Of a DNA stretch of 31,930 bases, positions 4,409 to 11,383 are shown piece by piece. Position 1 is the stretch's first letter. Each line of letters starts with the position of its first letter. Origin of the DNA: a virus. Lineage: Duplodnaviria; Heunggongvirae; Uroviricota; Caudoviricetes. The notes under the pieces are model-generated. The model saw nothing but the letters and a program-made list of their open reading frames with translations. It searched no databases and was not told the DNA's origin. The stretch is taken from IMG/VR virus record IMGVR_UViG_2565956721_000004, positions 1 through 31,930 of that record; one strand, 5' to 3'. Made by a program: the position numbers and the translations under genes.

Positions 4409-7207
4409 ATGTGGGGAAGTGAAAACAAACAAAATCTGGACGTACTGGATCCTGTGCAGTTGGTGCGTATCGAAGCGGTACACCGGGGGTTCCTTTACCA
4501 GCATCTTTACGCTGTAGGCTGCTTACTTTTGGCGCAGAGGGCTGCTATGGACTCAGTAACTGTCGAGCTTGATGAGGATATTGAGCTGAAATCCAAACAG
4601 GAACGTCTCTACATTCAGGTTAAAACCCGTTCAAAACCTATTATGCCCAACGATGTGTCGGGGGCTCTGGAGCGATTTGTAAAGCTCAGAAATGAGCATA
4701 CTTCGGCAAACCGCGAAGGGGTGGCTTCTTTTGTGATTATTGTAAACCAGGCGCCTGGACCGCTGCTTCAGAAGATGATTGACGATAAAAAGCTTCCTTC
4801 TGATGTTCTTATTGTCTGGCCCCAGTCGATAGCTGGACGTCACCCGGCACTTCCGCCCGCATGGAGTACTCTGGCTGATGCGGCCACATGGTGTATCGCA
4901 GAAGCAGAAAAGCTGAAATTTTCACTATTGTCCCCAGAATCCTTGATTTGGAAGTTAGCAGGATTGGTTCAGCTTGCCGCCACCGGAGGCGATACCAATG
5001 GACAACATACGTTTTTCACGGAAGAACTTACTGAACTATTTGAACAGTTGATCGTTCAGCTACAGGACTTTCCTGCACCACCAGCACTGTACCGCCCACA
5101 AAACGAAGAACCTTCTCTCACATCTGGTGAGCGGATCCGTATCCTTTGTGGACTCTCAGGTGCAGGCAAGACAGCTTGGGCCGCACAGGCCGCATTACAC
5201 TCCACTGCACTTTGTGCTTATTACGACACCGGTGATCTTCCCGGTCCAGCTCTGGCCAGTACGCTGGTGCGCGAGATGGCTGCTAGATTTACAGCCCGTG
5301 ACCAAGACGGTTTGCGCAGGATTTTGCTCCCCGGTGCCAGTGGTTTTGAGGCTCTTAGGAGTTTTGATACCTACCTGAAAGAGCAGGGTACCACCTTGGT
5401 GCTGGTTCTGGATAACGCCCATCGTGTACCTGCGGAAAATCTACGGGATGTTCTGAATGCAACTACACATATTCGTTTTGTGCTGTTGTGCCAGCCTCAC
5501 GAAAACGTTCGCGAACTGGAGGTCATGACGGGGCTACAGCGCGAGGGCCTGCAGGGATGGAATCTCGATACGGTAGCTGTCGTTGTAAACGATATCGGAG
5601 GATTTGCCACCGCTATGGGATACGAGCAGCTACGGGCTTACACTGGTGGTCTTCCCCTGTATGTAGAGAGCGCCGCAAAAATCGCCGTTTCTGATTATGA
5701 GCGTAATGTCGATGCTCTGTGTGCTGAACTCCAGCAACAAACCCATACTGCGGAAACCGCCCAAGAAATTATTCTGTCACGTGTATTTCAGGGATTTGAA
5801 TCACTACTTCAGAGCGCGCTGGCATTGTTCAGTCTCTCTGACGTAGGGCTGAGTCGCGAAGAGATTTCTACGCTCCTAATCAATTCGCTGAACATTTCAC
5901 CAAGCAGTGCGGCTTCTTTAATTAGGAAAATGCGCGCTACTGGCACTATTGAAATTTATGGAAACCAGACCCTGAAGGTACATGATGCTGTCAGGGGGCT
6001 AGGACTGCAACATCTGGAACTGATGGATCAGGGTATATCGAACAAAGCGCTACTAGCGCTGAAAGACCTTTTAGTTGAAAGTCTTCATAATACCCGCAAT
6101 ACAAAACGGTTATCGTTGTTGACTCAACTTTATATTAAGCTCAATGATGTCACGACGTTGATCGAACTCTCAGGCCAAGAAATGTTTTATGAGATGGGCG
6201 TGACGGTCGACATTCTTGCAAGCTTGGAGCGTGCTGCAACATCGGACTTATTGGGACCTGTTCATAAATTCTGGGCATTGGATGGCCTTGTTTTCGTTGA
6301 GCTTAAAGACGGAATATCCGACCACATTGCTCAGAGGTTAAACATCATGGGAGCTTTACTTGCGGAGCACAAGTTCGGCTATCAAGAAGAGATGGCCTAT
6401 GCAATGAAACGAATGTTATTTTCGGCAGAAAGCAATGATGCACGAGAAGTTCAAAAGCTGGCACAGGAAGTCCGCCCCCAACTCCCAGATGAAGAACATA
6501 AACGCATCTTTGACTACAACCATGCCATTGCACTCTGGAGATTAAAAAAACTCAAGGATGCTGAAACATTAAGCTGTAATGTTATACAAGGGTACTATTC
6601 TTTATTTGGTATCACACCTGCTGATGTCATAGGAAAAAACGCCGACGCATTATGGAAAACTATTAATCATTCCGAAAATATGCAGGAACACTTTAAACAT
6701 ATGGCTGATGCTCTGGAGTTGCTGGCCAGAATTCGTGATGCGCAGGGAAAACTGTCACCATTACTGCGTATTCATTCGATGAAGTTCTACAATCTGGCCA
6801 TGGCCCCGGAATCCATGGTCAGGGTGGGCCAAGATCTGGCGGATGAGTTTGTTGCCATAAAGGATTACGACGGTGCCAAGGAAGTCATGGAGCAACATGT
6901 CCTGCCGGTTGTCAATGAGGCAGGTCTAGTACATCGACTGATTCAGGTTCGAAGCCAATACGCAGTCATATTGGCACTATCGGGTCAGCATAAAGCAGCT
7001 GATGTCGAAATGCAGCGCCTTGCTCCCTATATCGAAGGCCTCACAGGTGTACAGCGTCAAGAAATCCAAAATCAATCAAATTACATCGTACAGCTTGCCC
7101 ATAAAGCAGCAAAGACTAAATTAACTGAAGTTTTTGGTGCGGTCGGCCGGAATGAACAATGCCCCTGTGGCTCGGGAATAAAGTACAAAAAATGTCACGG
7201 TGCCTGA
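4409..7207 (+). CDS. STAND-type P-loop NTPase with N-terminal Mrr-like nuclease-type domain, TPR-like helical C-terminal region and terminal SEC-C zinc motif (candidate antiphage sensor)
   Basis: 932-aa ORF with AAGGA RBS. Motifs read from the translation: D55...Q70-V-K72 (hhhQxK, Mrr/PD-(D/E)xK-like); Walker A G248-LSGAGKT255 (nt 5150-5173); Walker B L330-VLVLDN336; GLPL motif 414-417 (NB-ARC/STAND hallmark); long helical repeat region; C918-P-C920-GSGIKYKK-C929-H930 (SEC-C type). Fold and function are inferred. Confidence 0.85.
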   Translation: MWGSENKQNLDVLDPVQLVRIEAVHRGFLYQHLYAVGCLLLAQRAAMDSVTVELDEDIELKSKQERLYIQVKTRSKPIMPNDVSGALERFVKLRNEHTSANREGVASFVIIVNQAPGPLLQKMIDDKKLPSDVLIVWPQSIAGRHPALPPAWSTLADAATWCIAEAEKLKFSLLSPESLIWKLAGLVQLAATGGDTNGQHTFFTEELTELFEQLIVQLQDFPAPPALYRPQNEEPSLTSGERIRILCGLSGAGKTAWAAQAALHSTALCAYYDTGDLPGPALASTLVREMAARFTARDQDGLRRILLPGASGFEALRSFDTYLKEQGTTLVLVLDNAHRVPAENLRDVLNATTHIRFVLLCQPHENVRELEVMTGLQREGLQGWNLDTVAVVVNDIGGFATAMGYEQLRAYTGGLPLYVESAAKIAVSDYERNVDALCAELQQQTHTAETAQEIILSRVFQGFESLLQSALALFSLSDVGLSREEISTLLINSLNISPSSAASLIRKMRATGTIEIYGNQTLKVHDAVRGLGLQHLELMDQGISNKALLALKDLLVESLHNTRNTKRLSLLTQLYIKLNDVTTLIELSGQEMFYEMGVTVDILASLERAATSDLLGPVHKFWALDGLVFVELKDGISDHIAQRLNIMGALLAEHKFGYQEEMAYAMKRMLFSAESNDAREVQKLAQEVRPQLPDEEHKRIFDYNHAIALWRLKKLKDAETLSCNVIQGYYSLFGITPADVIGKNADALWKTINHSENMQEHFKHMADALELLARIRDAQGKLSPLLRIHSMKFYNLAMAPESMVRVGQDLADEFVAIKDYDGAKEVMEQHVLPVVNEAGLVHRLIQVRSQYAVILALSGQHKAADVEMQRLAPYIEGLTGVQRQEIQNQSNYIVQLAHKAAKTKLTEVFGAVGRNEQCPCGSGIKYKKCHGA

Positions 7208-7484
7208 GTCTTTGTACGACCATGCGGGCCTTATTGTCTTGCTATTGCTCTTATGGTTCGCCTTTCTGATTGATTTCATATTGGCGAGGTGACGGGAGTT
7301 AAGTAGAATGGCTGCGGGTGCTTGAGGCTATCTGTCTCAGGCATGAACACCAAAGGCAGATAGAGAAAAGCCCCAGTTAACATTACGCGTCCTGCAAGAC
7401 GCTTAACATTAATCTGAGGCTCAATCTATGAACGGCAAATCTAGGTTAGCCTCTTACGTGCCGAAAGGCAAGGAGAAGCAGGCT

Positions 7485-7640
7485 ATGAAGCAGCAAAAGG
7501 CGATGTTAATCGCCCTGATCGTCATCTGTTTAACCGTCATTGTGACGGCACTGGTAACGAGGAAAGACCTCTGCGAGGTACGAATCCGAACCGGCCAGAC
7601 GGAGGTCGCTGTCTTCACAGCTTACGAACCTGAGGAGTAA
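7485..7640 (+). CDS. hokD: Hok/Gef-family type I toxin (HokD/RelF-like), with overlapping upstream mok-like frame starting 7428
   Basis: 51 aa MKQQKAMLIALIVICLTVIVTALVTRKDLCEVRIRTGQTEVAVFTAYEPEE: single transmembrane helix plus conserved Hok C-terminal motif; matches HokD as I recall it. Confidence 0.8.
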   Translation: MKQQKAMLIALIVICLTVIVTALVTRKDLCEVRIRTGQTEVAVFTAYEPEE

Positions 7641-7708
7641 GAGACCTGGCGGGGGAGAAATCCCTCGCCACCTCTGATGTGTCAGGCATCCTCAACGCAC
7701 CCGCACTT

Positions 7709-7728
7709 AACCCGCTTCGGCGTTTTTT
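7709..7728 (+). terminator. Short GC hairpin (CCGCTTCGGCG) + T6 after hok
   Basis: Read directly; stem is short, so strength is uncertain. Confidence 0.35.
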
Positions 7729-7783
7729 CCGTTGATTAACTCTAGTTATTAGAGAACCGAACTTTTATTGATGGGGCAGGGAG

Positions 7784-8176
7784 ATGAAGAAACTTGTTTT
7801 AGTCGCAGGTGTAATGATTGCAACAGTAATGTTGGGAGGGTGTGCAGCAAAGGTCGATCCAGCGTTGAAAGCAGAAGCAATGAAGCCACTAACATGTAAT
7901 GATGAAAAGCAATGTGACTTTTATTGGAAACGAGCGCAATTCTGGTTGGCTAATAATTCCTCATGGAAAATTCAAACGGCGACAGACACGCTAATTTCCA
8001 CTTATAATCCCTCTCCAAATAGTCCATTCCTCGCTTATCAAGTGAGTAAAATGCCAAATGAAGATGGATCCTCAAGAATTTTCATCAAGCCTTTTTGCGA
8101 TAATATGTTTGGCTGTCAACCAAACCCCTATCAGGCAGTTGTTTCCTTTAAAAACTTCGTTAAAACAGGGCAGTAG
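7784..8176 (+). CDS. Secreted lipoprotein of unknown function (cargo; possible superinfection-exclusion factor)
   Basis: GGGCAGGGAG RBS; signal peptide with lipobox MLGG-C (MKKLVLVAGVMIATVMLGGC); four further Cys in the mature part. Not part of the Qin backbone as I recall it. Confidence 0.6.
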   Translation: MKKLVLVAGVMIATVMLGGCAAKVDPALKAEAMKPLTCNDEKQCDFYWKRAQFWLANNSSWKIQTATDTLISTYNPSPNSPFLAYQVSKMPNEDGSSRIFIKPFCDNMFGCQPNPYQAVVSFKNFVKTGQ

Positions 8177-8375
8177 TGTATAGCTTGGACGATAAATTAT
8201 TAGTGAAAACGCCGTAAACCCTCACCCAATGTGGACTAAGTCTATCAAACATGACTGTGATGATTAGTCCGTAGTTGTTGCCTATGAAATCTGGATTGAG
8301 TCAGGGTTTAATCCAATAATTATTCTATCGTTCCTTTACAAGTCCGGTATATTACTTTCAGTTTGTTTTAGCATA

Positions 8376-8400
8376 CCCGCTTCGGCGGGTTTTGTTTTTT
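8376..8400 (+). terminator. Intrinsic terminator CCCGCTTCGGCGGG + TTTTGTTTTTT
   Basis: Strong GC hairpin with tetraloop and U-tract; it overlaps the track start of ORF 8392, arguing that ORF starts later. Confidence 0.6.
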
Positions 8401-8472
8401 CCTGGCATTCTGGTTTACAATTCGCACGCCAGCCTGAACAACTGGCACCTGCTGCGCCAGCAGAGACAACCG

Positions 8473-8751
8473 ATGGCGCACGATACCAAATTACACAATT
8501 CTGATGATTTTGCCGTCTTTGCCAGCAGGCACGGGCGGCGTTCCCGCACTTTCAAATCTGACTGGTTCCAGCATGACCCATGCACTGAAGAACAGGCCGA
8601 GTGGCTAATTCAGTGCTACCGCAGACACGGATACGAGATTAAGAAAGCCCTCAGCCTCGATTATCGTCACTGGATAATCTCCGTCAGGCTTCCTTACTCC
8701 GAACGCCCACCGCGTCCGTCCCGCACATTCCAGCAACGCATCTGGAGGTAA
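8473..8751 (+). CDS. Hypothetical small protein (positionally Rem-like)
   Basis: Internal ATG at 8473 downstream of the terminator, in frame with track ORF 8392-8751; sits between hok and the DUF968 gene as rem does in Qin (recalled). Weak RBS. Confidence 0.4.
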   Translation: MAHDTKLHNSDDFAVFASRHGRRSRTFKSDWFQHDPCTEEQAEWLIQCYRRHGYEIKKALSLDYRHWIISVRLPYSERPPRPSRTFQQRIWR

Positions 8752-11073: not shown

Positions 11074-11149
11074 GGCCCTTTAGCTCAGTGGTGAGAGCGA
11101 GCGACTCATAATCGCCAGGTCGCTGGTTCAAATCCAGCAAGGGCCACCA
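11074..11149 (+). tRNA. tRNA-Ile2 (anticodon CAU, ileX-like; formally could decode Met)
   Basis: Cloverleaf folded by hand: acceptor GGCCCTT/AAGGGCC, anticodon loop CTCATAA, T-loop TTCAAAT, 3' CCA; close to E. coli ileX as recalled. Confidence 0.8.
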
Positions 11150-11150
11150 A

Positions 11151-11227
11151 CCGCCACTAGCTCATCAGGAAAGAGCGTCAACCCTTTAAGTTGAGTGTGC
11201 GAGGTTCGAGTCCCCGGTGGCGGTCCA
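11151..11227 (+). tRNA. Atypical tRNA-like gene, anticodon UUU (Lys) with C at position 33 and 5'-CC start
   Basis: Hand fold: acceptor CCGCCAC/GTGGCGG, U8, D-loop with GG, anticodon stem TCAAC/GTTGA with loop CCTTTAA, T-loop TTCGAGT (one A-C mismatch in T-stem), CCA end. It is only 1-2 nt from its neighbours. Confidence 0.5.
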
Positions 11228-11229
11228 GT

Positions 11230-11305
<76 letters not shown>

Positions 11306-11308
11306 TAT

Positions 11309-11383
<75 letters not shown>

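What the first reader, a model, noticed from the sequence alone, without database searches (positions are those of the whole stretch)
7784..8176. Orphan Cys-containing lipoprotein between hok and the nin-like block
Seen: 130-aa ORF with a canonical lipoprotein signal peptide and lipobox (MLGGC) and four additional cysteines, flanked by non-coding DNA and a strong terminator downstream (8376-8400). Established: lambdoid prophages often express envelope lipoproteins that block superinfection (receptor-masking or DNA-entry exclusion) or alter serum resistance (Bor-type). Inference: a lysogenic-conversion or superinfection-exclusion candidate.
Basis: partly seen in the sequence, partly recalled or inferred. 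Interest (0 to 1): 0.5.

Follow-up and report, generated by a model that had tools for sequence, protein, structure and literature searches.

The report
Mobile prophage outer-membrane lipoprotein cassette
A real 130-residue lipoprotein gene sits on a 665-base cassette inserted into the terminator of the prophage hokD gene; it belongs to a large, unnamed protein family carried as single-gene cargo by prophages, small plasmids and an integron, most likely to protect the cell envelope, but its function is untested.

Summary
ORF 7784-8176 encodes a 130-aa lipoprotein precursor: lipobox LGGC with Cys20, Ala at +2, and four further cysteines that are invariant or nearly so across the family. The intact terminator is at 8375-8400.

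It is not an orphan. About 976 clusters (at 50% identity) match it, and none has a Pfam, NCBIfam, PADLOC or PDB assignment. The AlphaFold model is confident (pLDDT 94.6), a small beta-alpha-beta4-alpha sandwich that only loosely resembles Flpp3, KA1 and BamC domains.

The gene lies on a 665-bp cassette inserted into the hokD terminator. An uninterrupted empty site exists, a junction of that type (>=80% of the joined flanks) is in 2879 E. coli genomes, and the gene itself is in 255 of 5426. The upstream terminator copy is destroyed, so read-through from hok probably drives expression.

Homologs recur in other mobile settings:
- directly downstream of CI-type repressors
- upstream of tail protein J
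- as the only sizeable cargo of 2.5-4 kb ColE1 plasmids
- as an integron cassette
- fused to LysM or PDZ domains

The lipoprotein is far more conserved than the neighbouring J receptor-binding domains, which argues against Cor/Llp-style masking of the phage's own receptor.

Best reading: a self-sufficient, envelope-tethered protective factor, most likely phage exclusion through a conserved envelope partner. The function itself is inferred, not shown.

The parts
7316..7490 (+). hok/sok regulatory RNA region, upstream context and the probable source of transcription entering the cassette
   Evidence: Rfam RF01794 (sok), 110 bits, E = 8e-26
7485..7640 (+). hokD toxin CDS (context)
   Evidence: RefSeq annotation of the 99.9%-identical locus in strain AR_0089; ORF list
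7710..7728 (+). Left junction: first copy of the 13-nt direct repeat ACCCGCTTCGGCG (7710-7722) followed by a T-run. This is the hokD terminator with the 3' half of its stem lost
   Evidence: Direct repeat D1. Alignment with the empty site in L010. No hairpin forms: MFE -4.7 kcal/mol, z = +0.67
7723..8374 (+). Cassette-specific DNA of 652 nt, absent from the empty hokD-nin sites; G+C about 38-42% against 50-57% in the flanks
7784..7840 (+). Lipoprotein signal peptide, residues 1-19, ending in lipobox L-G-G before Cys20
   Evidence: Sequence; PS51257-type pattern and family conservation
7784..8176 (+). Lipoprotein precursor CDS, 130 aa plus stop
7841..8173 (+). Mature domain from the lipid-modified Cys20 to Gln130: beta-alpha-beta4-alpha sandwich with two CX5C pairs (C38/C44 and C105/C111)
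8177..8374 (+). 3' untranslated part of the cassette. It is no more structured than shuffled sequence and occurs only together with the gene
   Evidence: Fold z = 0.16. Found in the same number of genomes (255) as the gene. No Rfam family matches and no protein remnant was found
8375..8400 (+). Right junction: second copy of the 13-nt repeat (8375-8387) inside the intact intrinsic terminator, which is the original hokD terminator

Best explanation
What it is (well supported). The feature is a 665-bp single-gene accessory cassette inserted into the intrinsic terminator of the hokD locus of E. coli lambdoid prophages. It encodes a lipoprotein precursor. By the standard Lgt/LspA/Lnt and Lol rules the protein should be lipidated at Cys20 and, having Ala rather than Asp at +2, sorted to the outer membrane. 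There a compact, disulfide-stabilised domain of about 110 residues would face the periplasm. The insertion destroyed the upstream copy of the hok terminator and kept the downstream one. The gene is therefore most likely transcribed in lysogens by read-through from the hok promoter, independently of the phage repressor.

What it does (inferred). The domain works on its own. In different elements it is tethered near the outer membrane or cell wall by a lipid anchor, or carries a LysM or PDZ domain. It is cargo of prophages, ColE1-type plasmids and an integron. I propose that it protects the carrier cell at the envelope, most likely by blocking entry of other phages after adsorption or during genome transfer. 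It would do so by binding a conserved envelope or periplasmic partner, not by masking the receptor used by its own phage.
For: Shown here:
- The ORF, lipobox and cysteines are present. The +2 residue is Ala in 190 of 216 family members and never Asp.
- Purifying selection acts on the gene and the fold prediction is confident.
- The cassette boundaries are exact. An empty site matches the joined flanks at 99.2% in one piece, and a junction of that type (>=80% of the joined flanks) occurs in 2879 genomes. A 13-nt direct repeat marks both junctions. The left terminator copy does not fold and the right one does.
- All 55 E. coli-type IMG/VR prophage loci carry the cassette at the same hok site, while the genes around it vary.
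- The identical protein is present in two unrelated prophage backbones.
- Homologs lie directly downstream of, and co-oriented with, repressor genes. These are HTH+S24 CI-type in L075-77, L078 and L080, and HTH_3 in L009 and L015. In L012 and L083 it is a gene in the repressor position facing cro/cII, and in L082 an Arc-like gene.
- Homologs lie in tail modules upstream of J.
- A homolog is the only sizeable cargo of 2.5-4 kb ColRNAI plasmids.
- A homolog is the first cassette of an integron, with GTTAGGC and attC cores.
- One homolog lies beside an integrase in a stretch that also holds an AIPR abortive-infection gene.
- Fusions to LysM and to PDZ place the domain in the periplasm, near the wall or membrane.

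From the literature:
- hokD of a related prophage is transcribed 3792-fold above the prophage background in lysogens (PMC9928086).
- Unrelated lipoproteins encoded in tail clusters do exclude phages that use OmpA or LamB (PMC11893012).
Against: - No experiment or paper addresses this protein, and PADLOC gives no hit.
- Conservation is unusually high for an exclusion factor: 35-45% identity between Enterobacteria and Acidobacteriota or Thiobacillus. Some members lie in chromosomal stretches with no sign of a mobile element. This may point to a function unrelated to phages.
- No convincing sigma-70 promoter lies in the 61 nt between the junction and the start codon, so expression in E. coli rests on the read-through inference.
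- In strain 503025 an IS1203 separates hok from the gene.
Confidence: 0.4

Rival explanations
1. It is a periplasmic inhibitor or orphan immunity protein against cell-wall-degrading enzymes that act in the periplasm. Candidates are host lysozymes, type VI secretion peptidoglycan-hydrolase effectors, pesticin- or colicin-M-like bacteriocins, or phage lysins acting from outside. The lipid or LysM anchor would hold the inhibitor next to the peptidoglycan.
For: - LysM (peptidoglycan-binding) fusions occur on 126 Acinetobacter plasmid records.
- The family has both lipid-anchored and non-lipid (Sec-signal plus LysM) forms. From memory, the MliC/PliC lysozyme inhibitors show a comparable split.
- Two conserved CX5C motifs, one of them the nearly invariant C-x-N-x-F-G-C, could form rigid loops.
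- Conservation across phyla fits a conserved enzymatic target.
- Being the sole cargo of ColE1-type plasmids resembles an orphan bacteriocin-immunity gene.
Against: - No toxin or hydrolase gene was seen next to it in any locus examined.
- Placement inside a late tail operon would put an inhibitor of wall hydrolases at odds with the phage's own endolysin, unless it is highly specific.
Confidence: 0.22
2. This is the first reader's main idea: a Cor/Llp-type superinfection-exclusion lipoprotein that masks or inactivates the specific outer-membrane receptor used by its own phage.
For: - It is predicted to be an outer-membrane lipoprotein.
- In Pantoea-type phages the gene lies immediately upstream of J. 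From memory, cor and llp likewise lie near receptor-binding genes.
- Lipoproteins encoded in tail clusters exclude phages that share the same receptor (PMC11893012).
Against: - The lipoprotein does not track J. It is 100% identical where the J C-terminus is 57-82% identical, 94% where J is 59%, and 77-84% between E. coli and Pantoea where J is 17-22%.
- In E. coli it is linked to hok, about 20 kb from J, in different prophage backbones.
- It also occurs on plasmids and an integron that encode no phage tail.
- The PHROG Cor match (E = 0.007) covers only the signal peptide.
Confidence: 0.1
3. It is a lysogenic-conversion factor aimed at the animal host, giving Bor/Iss/TraT-like serum or complement resistance or a similar virulence trait.
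For: It is a prophage-borne lipoprotein present in pathogenic lineages (APEC IMT5155, EAEC 042, STEC isolates) as well as commensals.
Against: - Pfam gives no match to the Bor or TraT families.
- The family is abundant in environmental and soil metagenomes, in Thiobacillus and Acidobacteriota, and in phages of Pantoea, a genus that includes plant-associated species. Complement resistance is irrelevant in those settings.
Confidence: 0.06
4. It is a general envelope-maintenance lipoprotein, for example an accessory to outer-membrane protein or lipid handling. Mobile elements would have picked it up repeatedly without any role in conflict with phages or competitors.
For: - Some family members are stand-alone chromosomal genes with no mobile-element signature.
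- PDZ fusions suggest binding of protein C-termini in the periplasm.
Against: - In E. coli it is found in only 4.7% of genomes and only in prophages.
- No conserved neighbours were seen.
- Repeated capture as a single gene by five kinds of mobile context argues for a portable, selectable benefit.
- The fold similarity is weak: Foldseek E >= 0.01, TM about 0.4.
Confidence: 0.1

Closest known systems
Cor (phi80/N15/HK022/T1) and Llp (T5) superinfection-exclusion lipoproteins
   Same: They are small phage-encoded lipoproteins with a lipobox. Some homologs of the present gene sit beside the receptor-binding tail gene. The expected site of action is the periplasmic face of the outer membrane.
   Different: - No sequence relation: the PHROG Cor hit covers only the signal peptide.
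- No match to any exclusion lipoprotein among the PDB matches listed.
- The mature domain of about 110 aa is larger than Cor or Llp (about 60-80 aa, from memory).
- It is far more conserved and does not co-vary with J.
- It is also carried by plasmids and an integron.
Genes co-transcribed with the prophage repressor, such as lambda rexAB, BTP1 bstA and the Ltp lipoprotein of Streptococcus phage TP-J34 (from memory)
   Same: Homologs occupy the slot immediately downstream of the CI-type repressor on the same strand. That slot is a known place for lysogen-expressed defence or exclusion genes. Ltp is likewise a lipoprotein encoded in the lysogeny module.
   Different: There is no sequence or fold relation. 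In this window the gene is not in the immunity region but behind hokD. Co-transcription with the repressor is inferred from spacing and orientation only.
Classical lambdoid morons (lambda bor and lom; the HK97 morons)
   Same: It is a discrete insertion relative to an empty site, has lower G+C than its flanks, holds a single gene that is dispensable for the phage cycle, and ends at a terminator.
   Different: No promoter of its own could be recognised in the E. coli cassette. It appears to borrow the hok transcript, because its insertion split the hok terminator.
Flpp3/DUF3568 lipoprotein of Francisella, the BamC N-terminal helix-grip domain and eukaryotic KA1 domains (closest folds)
   Different: Sequence identity is 5-17% and Foldseek TM-scores are only 0.40-0.46. 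No Pfam model matches. The four conserved cysteines are specific to this family. None of these similarities implies a function.

Membership tests
Bacterial lipoproteins (Lgt/LspA/Lnt substrates; PROSITE PS51257) | N-terminal basic residues, an uncharged hydrophobic stretch, a lipobox [LVI][ASTVIG][GAS]C, and the Cys within residues 15-35 | tested here: met
   K2 and K3, residues 4-16 hydrophobic, L17-G18-G19-C20. The same pattern is found in 216 of 257 family proteins; commonest lipoboxes are LAGC, LSGC and LAAC.
Bacterial lipoproteins (Lgt/LspA/Lnt substrates; PROSITE PS51257) | Actual lipid modification and cleavage by signal peptidase II | not testable with these tools
   This needs globomycin sensitivity, palmitate labelling or mass spectrometry.
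Outer-membrane-sorted lipoproteins (Lol pathway rule in Enterobacteriaceae) | No Asp at position +2, which is the inner-membrane retention signal | tested here: met
   The +2 residue is Ala here. Across the family it is Ala in 190 of 216 and never Asp. Localisation itself was not tested.
Cor superinfection-exclusion proteins (PHROG 1119) | Profile match over the mature protein | tested here: not met
   E = 0.0071 and the matched stretch is residues 1-44, essentially the signal peptide region.
Lambda Bor/Iss and TraT lipoproteins | Match to the corresponding Pfam families | tested here: not met
   Pfam returned no such hit for the protein at E<=1, nor for 73 family members at E<=0.01.
Receptor-specific exclusion factor (works like Cor/Llp) | Co-inheritance or co-variation with the phage's receptor-binding domain | tested here: not met
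   The lipoprotein is 77-100% identical where the J C-terminal 250 aa are 17-82% identical. Two E. coli prophages with the identical lipoprotein have J C-termini only 53% identical over 299 aa. The sample is small, seven loci.
Moron (autonomous accessory unit in a prophage) | A discrete insertion relative to related phages, with deviant base composition | tested here: met
   An empty site matches the joined flanks at 99.2% in one piece. G+C is 38-42% against 50-57% in the flanks.
Moron (autonomous accessory unit in a prophage) | Its own promoter and terminator | tested here: inconclusive
   The terminator is present, but it is the displaced hok terminator. No sigma-70-like site was found between 7723 and 7783. 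Pantoea homologs have a conserved TGATAGGAT extended -10-like motif that the E. coli cassette lacks.
PHROG 16082 | Full-length profile match | tested here: met
   E = 2.6e-84 over residues 1-130 of 130. The family is annotated 'unknown function'.
DUF3568/Flpp3 | Pfam sequence match, with fold similarity as a secondary criterion | tested here: not met
Known anti-phage defence systems (PADLOC-DB 2.0) | Profile match | tested here: not met
   No family matched at E<=0.01.
Integron gene cassette (the Shewanella homolog only) | GTTRRRY core at the 5' boundary, an attC with RYYYAAC...GTTRRRY at the 3' end, and an adjacent intI | tested here: met
   In L096, GTTAGGC lies at 5969-5975 and GCCTAAC...GTTAGGT at 6421-6477. 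intI is divergent at 4713-5672.

The most novel reading that the evidence does not exclude
The family is a previously unrecognised, phylum-spanning, single-gene envelope defence. A small disulfide-locked periplasmic domain is tethered by lipid or LysM and binds a conserved envelope or incoming-phage component. It thereby blocks phage genome entry generically. Mobile elements trade it as cargo, in prophage repressor operons and tail modules, on ColE1 plasmids and in integron cassettes. In E. coli it has additionally hijacked the highly transcribed hok locus for expression by splitting the hok terminator.
Probability: 0.3. Interest if true: 0.75.

Novelty: new variant of a known kind. Interest (0 to 1): 0.55.

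Why it matters
Envelope-level exclusion is the least catalogued layer of phage resistance, because its genes are small, diverse and invisible to defence-system finders. PADLOC, Pfam and NCBIfam all miss this one.

A roughly 110-residue domain with about a thousand 50%-identity clusters, a confident fold and repeated capture by prophages, minimal plasmids and an integron is a tractable candidate. It is a single gene, easy to clone, and present in well-studied strains such as EAEC 042 and APEC IMT5155.

If it blocks phage entry through a conserved partner, it would matter for predicting phage-therapy host range, and it would expose a conserved step of genome delivery. If it instead inhibits wall-degrading enzymes, it would be a new inhibitor or immunity family.

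The terminator-splitting insertion is also a neat example of an accessory gene acquiring lysogen expression without a promoter of its own.

Tried and rejected
Searches that found nothing useful:
- Pfam, NCBIfam and PADLOC scans of the protein, and Pfam on 73 relatives, gave no meaningful family. There were only signal-peptide-level or sub-threshold hits: C4, Ala_zip_lipo, LPAM_1 and DUF6491.
- PDB sequence searches with the single protein and with the profile gave nothing below E = 0.3.
- Foldseek against BFVD viral structures gave no hit at E<=0.001. The afdb50 library was unavailable.
- Alignments A2 and A3 were too diverse for the locus-finding tool. The genome-contig scan with A1 found no relative. 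The viral scan with P0221 found none.
- Rfam gave nothing credible between hok and the terminator (rsmX E = 0.93).
- The sigma-70 scan found no promoter upstream of the start codon.
- Literature searches by accession (WP_235638006, WP_000737636, WP_032201349) and by topic found no paper on this protein.

Ideas tested and dropped:
- The 198-nt 3' untranslated region is not a decayed copy of the downstream gene seen in Pantoea or Phytobacter (tblastn, no significant hit). It is also no more structured than shuffled sequence (z = 0.16).
- The upstream 932-aa gene is not functionally linked to the lipoprotein: it is absent from all 55 E. coli-type cassette-bearing prophage loci in IMG/VR.
- The phage-lysis (spanin-like) reading was considered. 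The PHROG Rz-like hit has E = 0.21, the gene is not in the lysis cassette, and it occurs on plasmids and an integron.

Full report
**1. Observation**

The ORF at 7784-8176 (+) is real. It encodes 130 residues, beginning MKKLVLVAGVMIATVMLGGC|AAKVDP.... RefSeq annotates the same coordinates as a hypothetical protein in a 99.9%-identical E. coli chromosome.

The N-terminus satisfies the PROSITE-type lipoprotein rule: two lysines, an uncharged hydrophobic stretch, L-G-G-C with Cys20. The +2 residue is Ala in 190 of 216 and never Asp. Under the established Lol sorting rule for Enterobacteriaceae this predicts outer-membrane localisation (inference from the rule, not tested).

Four further cysteines are present: C38, C44, C105 and C111, arranged as two CX5C pairs. 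C38, C44 and C105 are invariant and C111 is present in 72 of 73 diverse relatives.

**2. A real gene in a large unnamed family, not an orphan**

- A word-indexed search found close relatives (66-85% identity) in Pantoea, Enterobacter and Phytobacter.
- An exhaustive phmmer search of 1.84 billion cluster representatives found 976 clusters at E<=1e-3 and 454 at E<=1e-10. Most are 120-140 residues long.
- Where a source names a member, it is 'hypothetical protein' or, for one UniRef entry, 'Prophage protein'.
- Pfam, NCBIfam, PADLOC and PDB sequence searches give nothing. Only PHROG 16082, of unknown function, matches full length.
- The more diverged of the 14 E. coli alleles give dN/dS of 0.10-0.25.
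- Members also occur in Thiobacillus and Acidobacteriota genomes.

**3. Fold**

With a 73-sequence alignment, AlphaFold2 gives pLDDT 94.6 and pTM 0.83. After the signal helix the model has a short helix, then beta-alpha-beta-beta-beta-beta-alpha.

Foldseek scores are weak (E >= 0.013, TM about 0.4), and the viral structure library gives nothing significant. The fold is therefore a generic small alpha/beta sandwich that several bacterial lipoproteins share. It assigns no function. No known exclusion lipoprotein or lysozyme inhibitor appears among the matches listed.

**4. Anatomy of the locus**

The window is a lambdoid prophage. In strain AR_0089 the same prophage lies at tRNA-Ser next to mtfA.

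Joining the window's flanks in silico (7430-7722 plus 8388-8700) recovers a contiguous 606-bp match at 99.2% in strain DETEC-S589. A place covering at least 80% of the joined flanks exists in 2879 of 5426 complete E. coli genomes. This count also includes the cassette-bearing genomes, where the two flanks are reported as two joined pieces. The gene itself is present in 255 genomes, always on the chromosome.

Alignment of the occupied and empty sites shows a clean 665-bp insertion bracketed by a 13-nt direct repeat, ACCCGCTTCGGCG, at 7710-7722 and 8375-8387. That repeat is the 5' arm and loop of the hokD terminator.
- The left copy has lost its 3' arm and does not fold (-4.7 kcal/mol, z = +0.67).
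- The right copy is intact.

A Pantoea homolog is preceded by the same terminator sequence, AACCCGCTTCGGCGGGTTTTT, in intact form. The cassette therefore probably entered by recombination between near-identical terminators rather than by transposition (inference).

The cassette has 38-42% G+C against 50-57% in the flanks. All 55 E. coli-type prophage loci retrieved from IMG/VR carry it at the same position. Its identity (mostly 99-100%) is higher than that of the flanking nin-region genes (84-96%). A second allele with a different 3' untranslated end also exists.

**5. Expression (inferred)**

No sigma-70-like promoter was found in the 61 nt between the junction and the start codon. The extended -10-like motif TGATAGGAT, conserved upstream of the Pantoea genes, is absent in E. 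coli.

The hok terminator upstream is disabled and the next terminator follows the lipoprotein gene. The simplest reading is that hok transcripts run through the gene. In a transcriptome of E. coli LF82, hokD of a lambdoid prophage was the most strongly transcribed prophage locus in lysogens, 3792-fold above the local background (PMC9928086). Rfam confirms an intact hok/sok leader here.

This step is not shown for this locus. In strain 503025 an IS1203 lies between hokD and the gene, which would interrupt such read-through.

**6. Where relatives live**

Prophages, position a: immediately downstream of the lysogeny repressor, on the same strand, with a gap of 0-90 nt.
- three mosaic Citrobacter prophages, with an HTH_3+Peptidase_S24 repressor
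- IMG/VR contigs L078/79 and L080/81, also HTH_3+S24
- metagenomic phages L009 and L015, with an HTH_3 repressor
- L012 and L083, behind a gene in the repressor position facing cro/cII-like genes
- L082, behind an Arc-like gene

Prophages, position b: inside the tail module upstream of J.
- Pantoea-type phages L002/L071, L003/L004/L072/L073 and L070

Prophages, position c: behind hokD in E. coli, as in this window.

Small plasmids:
- WP_032201349.1 (41.7% identity) is the only sizeable cargo of 2.5-4 kb ColRNAI plasmids in Citrobacter, Salmonella and Enterobacter. One such plasmid is only 2519 bp.

Integron:
- On Shewanella plasmid pNi1-3 the homolog is the first cassette next to intI, bounded by GTTAGGC and an attC with GCCTAAC...GTTAGGT.

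Other settings:
- a genomic stretch next to an integrase that also holds an AIPR abortive-infection gene
- a prophage remnant in Phytobacter
- a Mycetohabitans megaplasmid
- several chromosomal stretches with no mobile-element signature

Domain fusions:
- On 126 Acinetobacter plasmid records the domain follows a Sec signal and a LysM peptidoglycan-binding domain.
- Other members carry a C-terminal PDZ domain or a tandem duplication.

The domain is therefore self-sufficient and periplasmic. It is held near the outer membrane or cell wall by interchangeable anchors, and mobile elements pick it up repeatedly as a one-gene trait.

**7. Test of the receptor-masking idea**

If the protein blocked the receptor of its own phage, as Cor and Llp do, it should track the receptor-binding C-terminus of J. 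It does not.
- L003 versus L072: lipoprotein 100% identical, J C-terminal 250 aa 82%.
- L002 versus L070: 94% versus 59%.
- E. coli versus Pantoea: 77-84% versus 17-22%.

Two E. coli prophages encode the identical lipoprotein but have different head modules and attachment sites. Their J proteins are 96% identical over the first 838 residues and only 53% over the last 299.

Together with its presence on plasmids and an integron, this argues against own-receptor masking and for a conserved target. The sample is small.

**8. Interpretation**

Secure: this is a real, selected, mobile accessory lipoprotein gene of an uncurated family, inserted into the hokD terminator.

Probable: outer-membrane anchoring, periplasmic disulfide-bonded folding, and expression in lysogens.

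Inferred: a protective role at the envelope.
- Best reading (0.4): exclusion of other phages at or after adsorption, through a conserved envelope or periplasmic partner. The repressor-adjacent and tail-module slots are where lysogen-expressed exclusion and defence genes are typically found. Unrelated tail-cluster lipoproteins have been shown to exclude phages (PMC11893012).
- Main rival (0.22): an inhibitor or immunity protein against wall-degrading enzymes. The LysM fusions, the cross-phylum conservation and the ColE1-plasmid context favour it.
- Lesser rivals: own-receptor masking (0.10), a general envelope-maintenance lipoprotein (0.10) and a Bor-like virulence factor (0.06).

**9. Novelty and verdict**

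The kind, a prophage accessory envelope lipoprotein, is known. This family is not described in any library or paper searched. It is unrelated in sequence and fold to Cor, Llp, Bor and TraT. It is unusually conserved and unusually promiscuous among mobile elements, and it gains expression in an uncommon way.

I rate it a new variant of a known kind, interest 0.55.

Noticed in passing
window 4409-7207 (+): A 932-aa protein with an N-terminal Cap4-like dsDNA nuclease domain, a central AAA_22/AAA_16 NTPase and a C-terminal SEC-C motif. PADLOC gives weak LmuA/DUF4297 hits. It looks like a separate STAND-type anti-phage candidate. It is absent from the 55 E. coli-type cassette-bearing prophage loci in IMG/VR.
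   Followed up: partly
window 11074-11383 (+): A cluster of four tRNA genes downstream of the Q antiterminator gene: Met(cat) (annotated tRNA-Ile in RefSeq), Lys(ttt), Thr(tgt) and Gly(tcc).
   Followed up: no
L086 7183-8396 (E. coli strain 503025, NZ_CP025892.1): An IS1203 (IS3 family) lies between hokD and an otherwise 100%-identical lipoprotein gene. It would cut the proposed read-through from hok.
   Followed up: no
L096 5969-6477 (Shewanella decolorationis plasmid pNi1-3): A 43%-identical homolog is the first gene cassette of an integron. It has a GTTAGGC core upstream, an attC (GCCTAAC...GTTAGGT) downstream and a divergent intI.
   Followed up: yes
L002 8374-8721 and L071 5332-5679 (Pantoea-type prophage): A second predicted lipoprotein gene (115 aa, MKKILIALCMIGMVGC...) overlaps the 3' end of the homolog, suggesting a two-lipoprotein unit in that phage. 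It has no remnant in the E. coli cassette.
   Followed up: partly
L094 5776-6345 (Acinetobacter baumannii plasmids of about 110 kb, 126 records): A 189-aa protein has a Sec signal peptide, a LysM domain and then this cysteine-containing domain, with no lipobox. The domain is thus paired with a peptidoglycan-binding module instead of a lipid anchor.
   Followed up: partly
L031, L051, L059-L061, L064-L068 (IMG/VR E. coli prophages): A second allele of the cassette is 95-99% identical over the first 500 nt but has a shorter, unrelated 3' untranslated end of about 97 nt before the terminator.
   Followed up: no
Protein-collection cluster containing the window protein: The 90%-identity cluster of 1137 members mixes 70-aa Hok-family toxins with this lipoprotein, and its representative is an 87-aa partial sequence. 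This is probably caused by partial or chimeric ORF calls, so cluster-size figures for this protein are unreliable.
   Followed up: no
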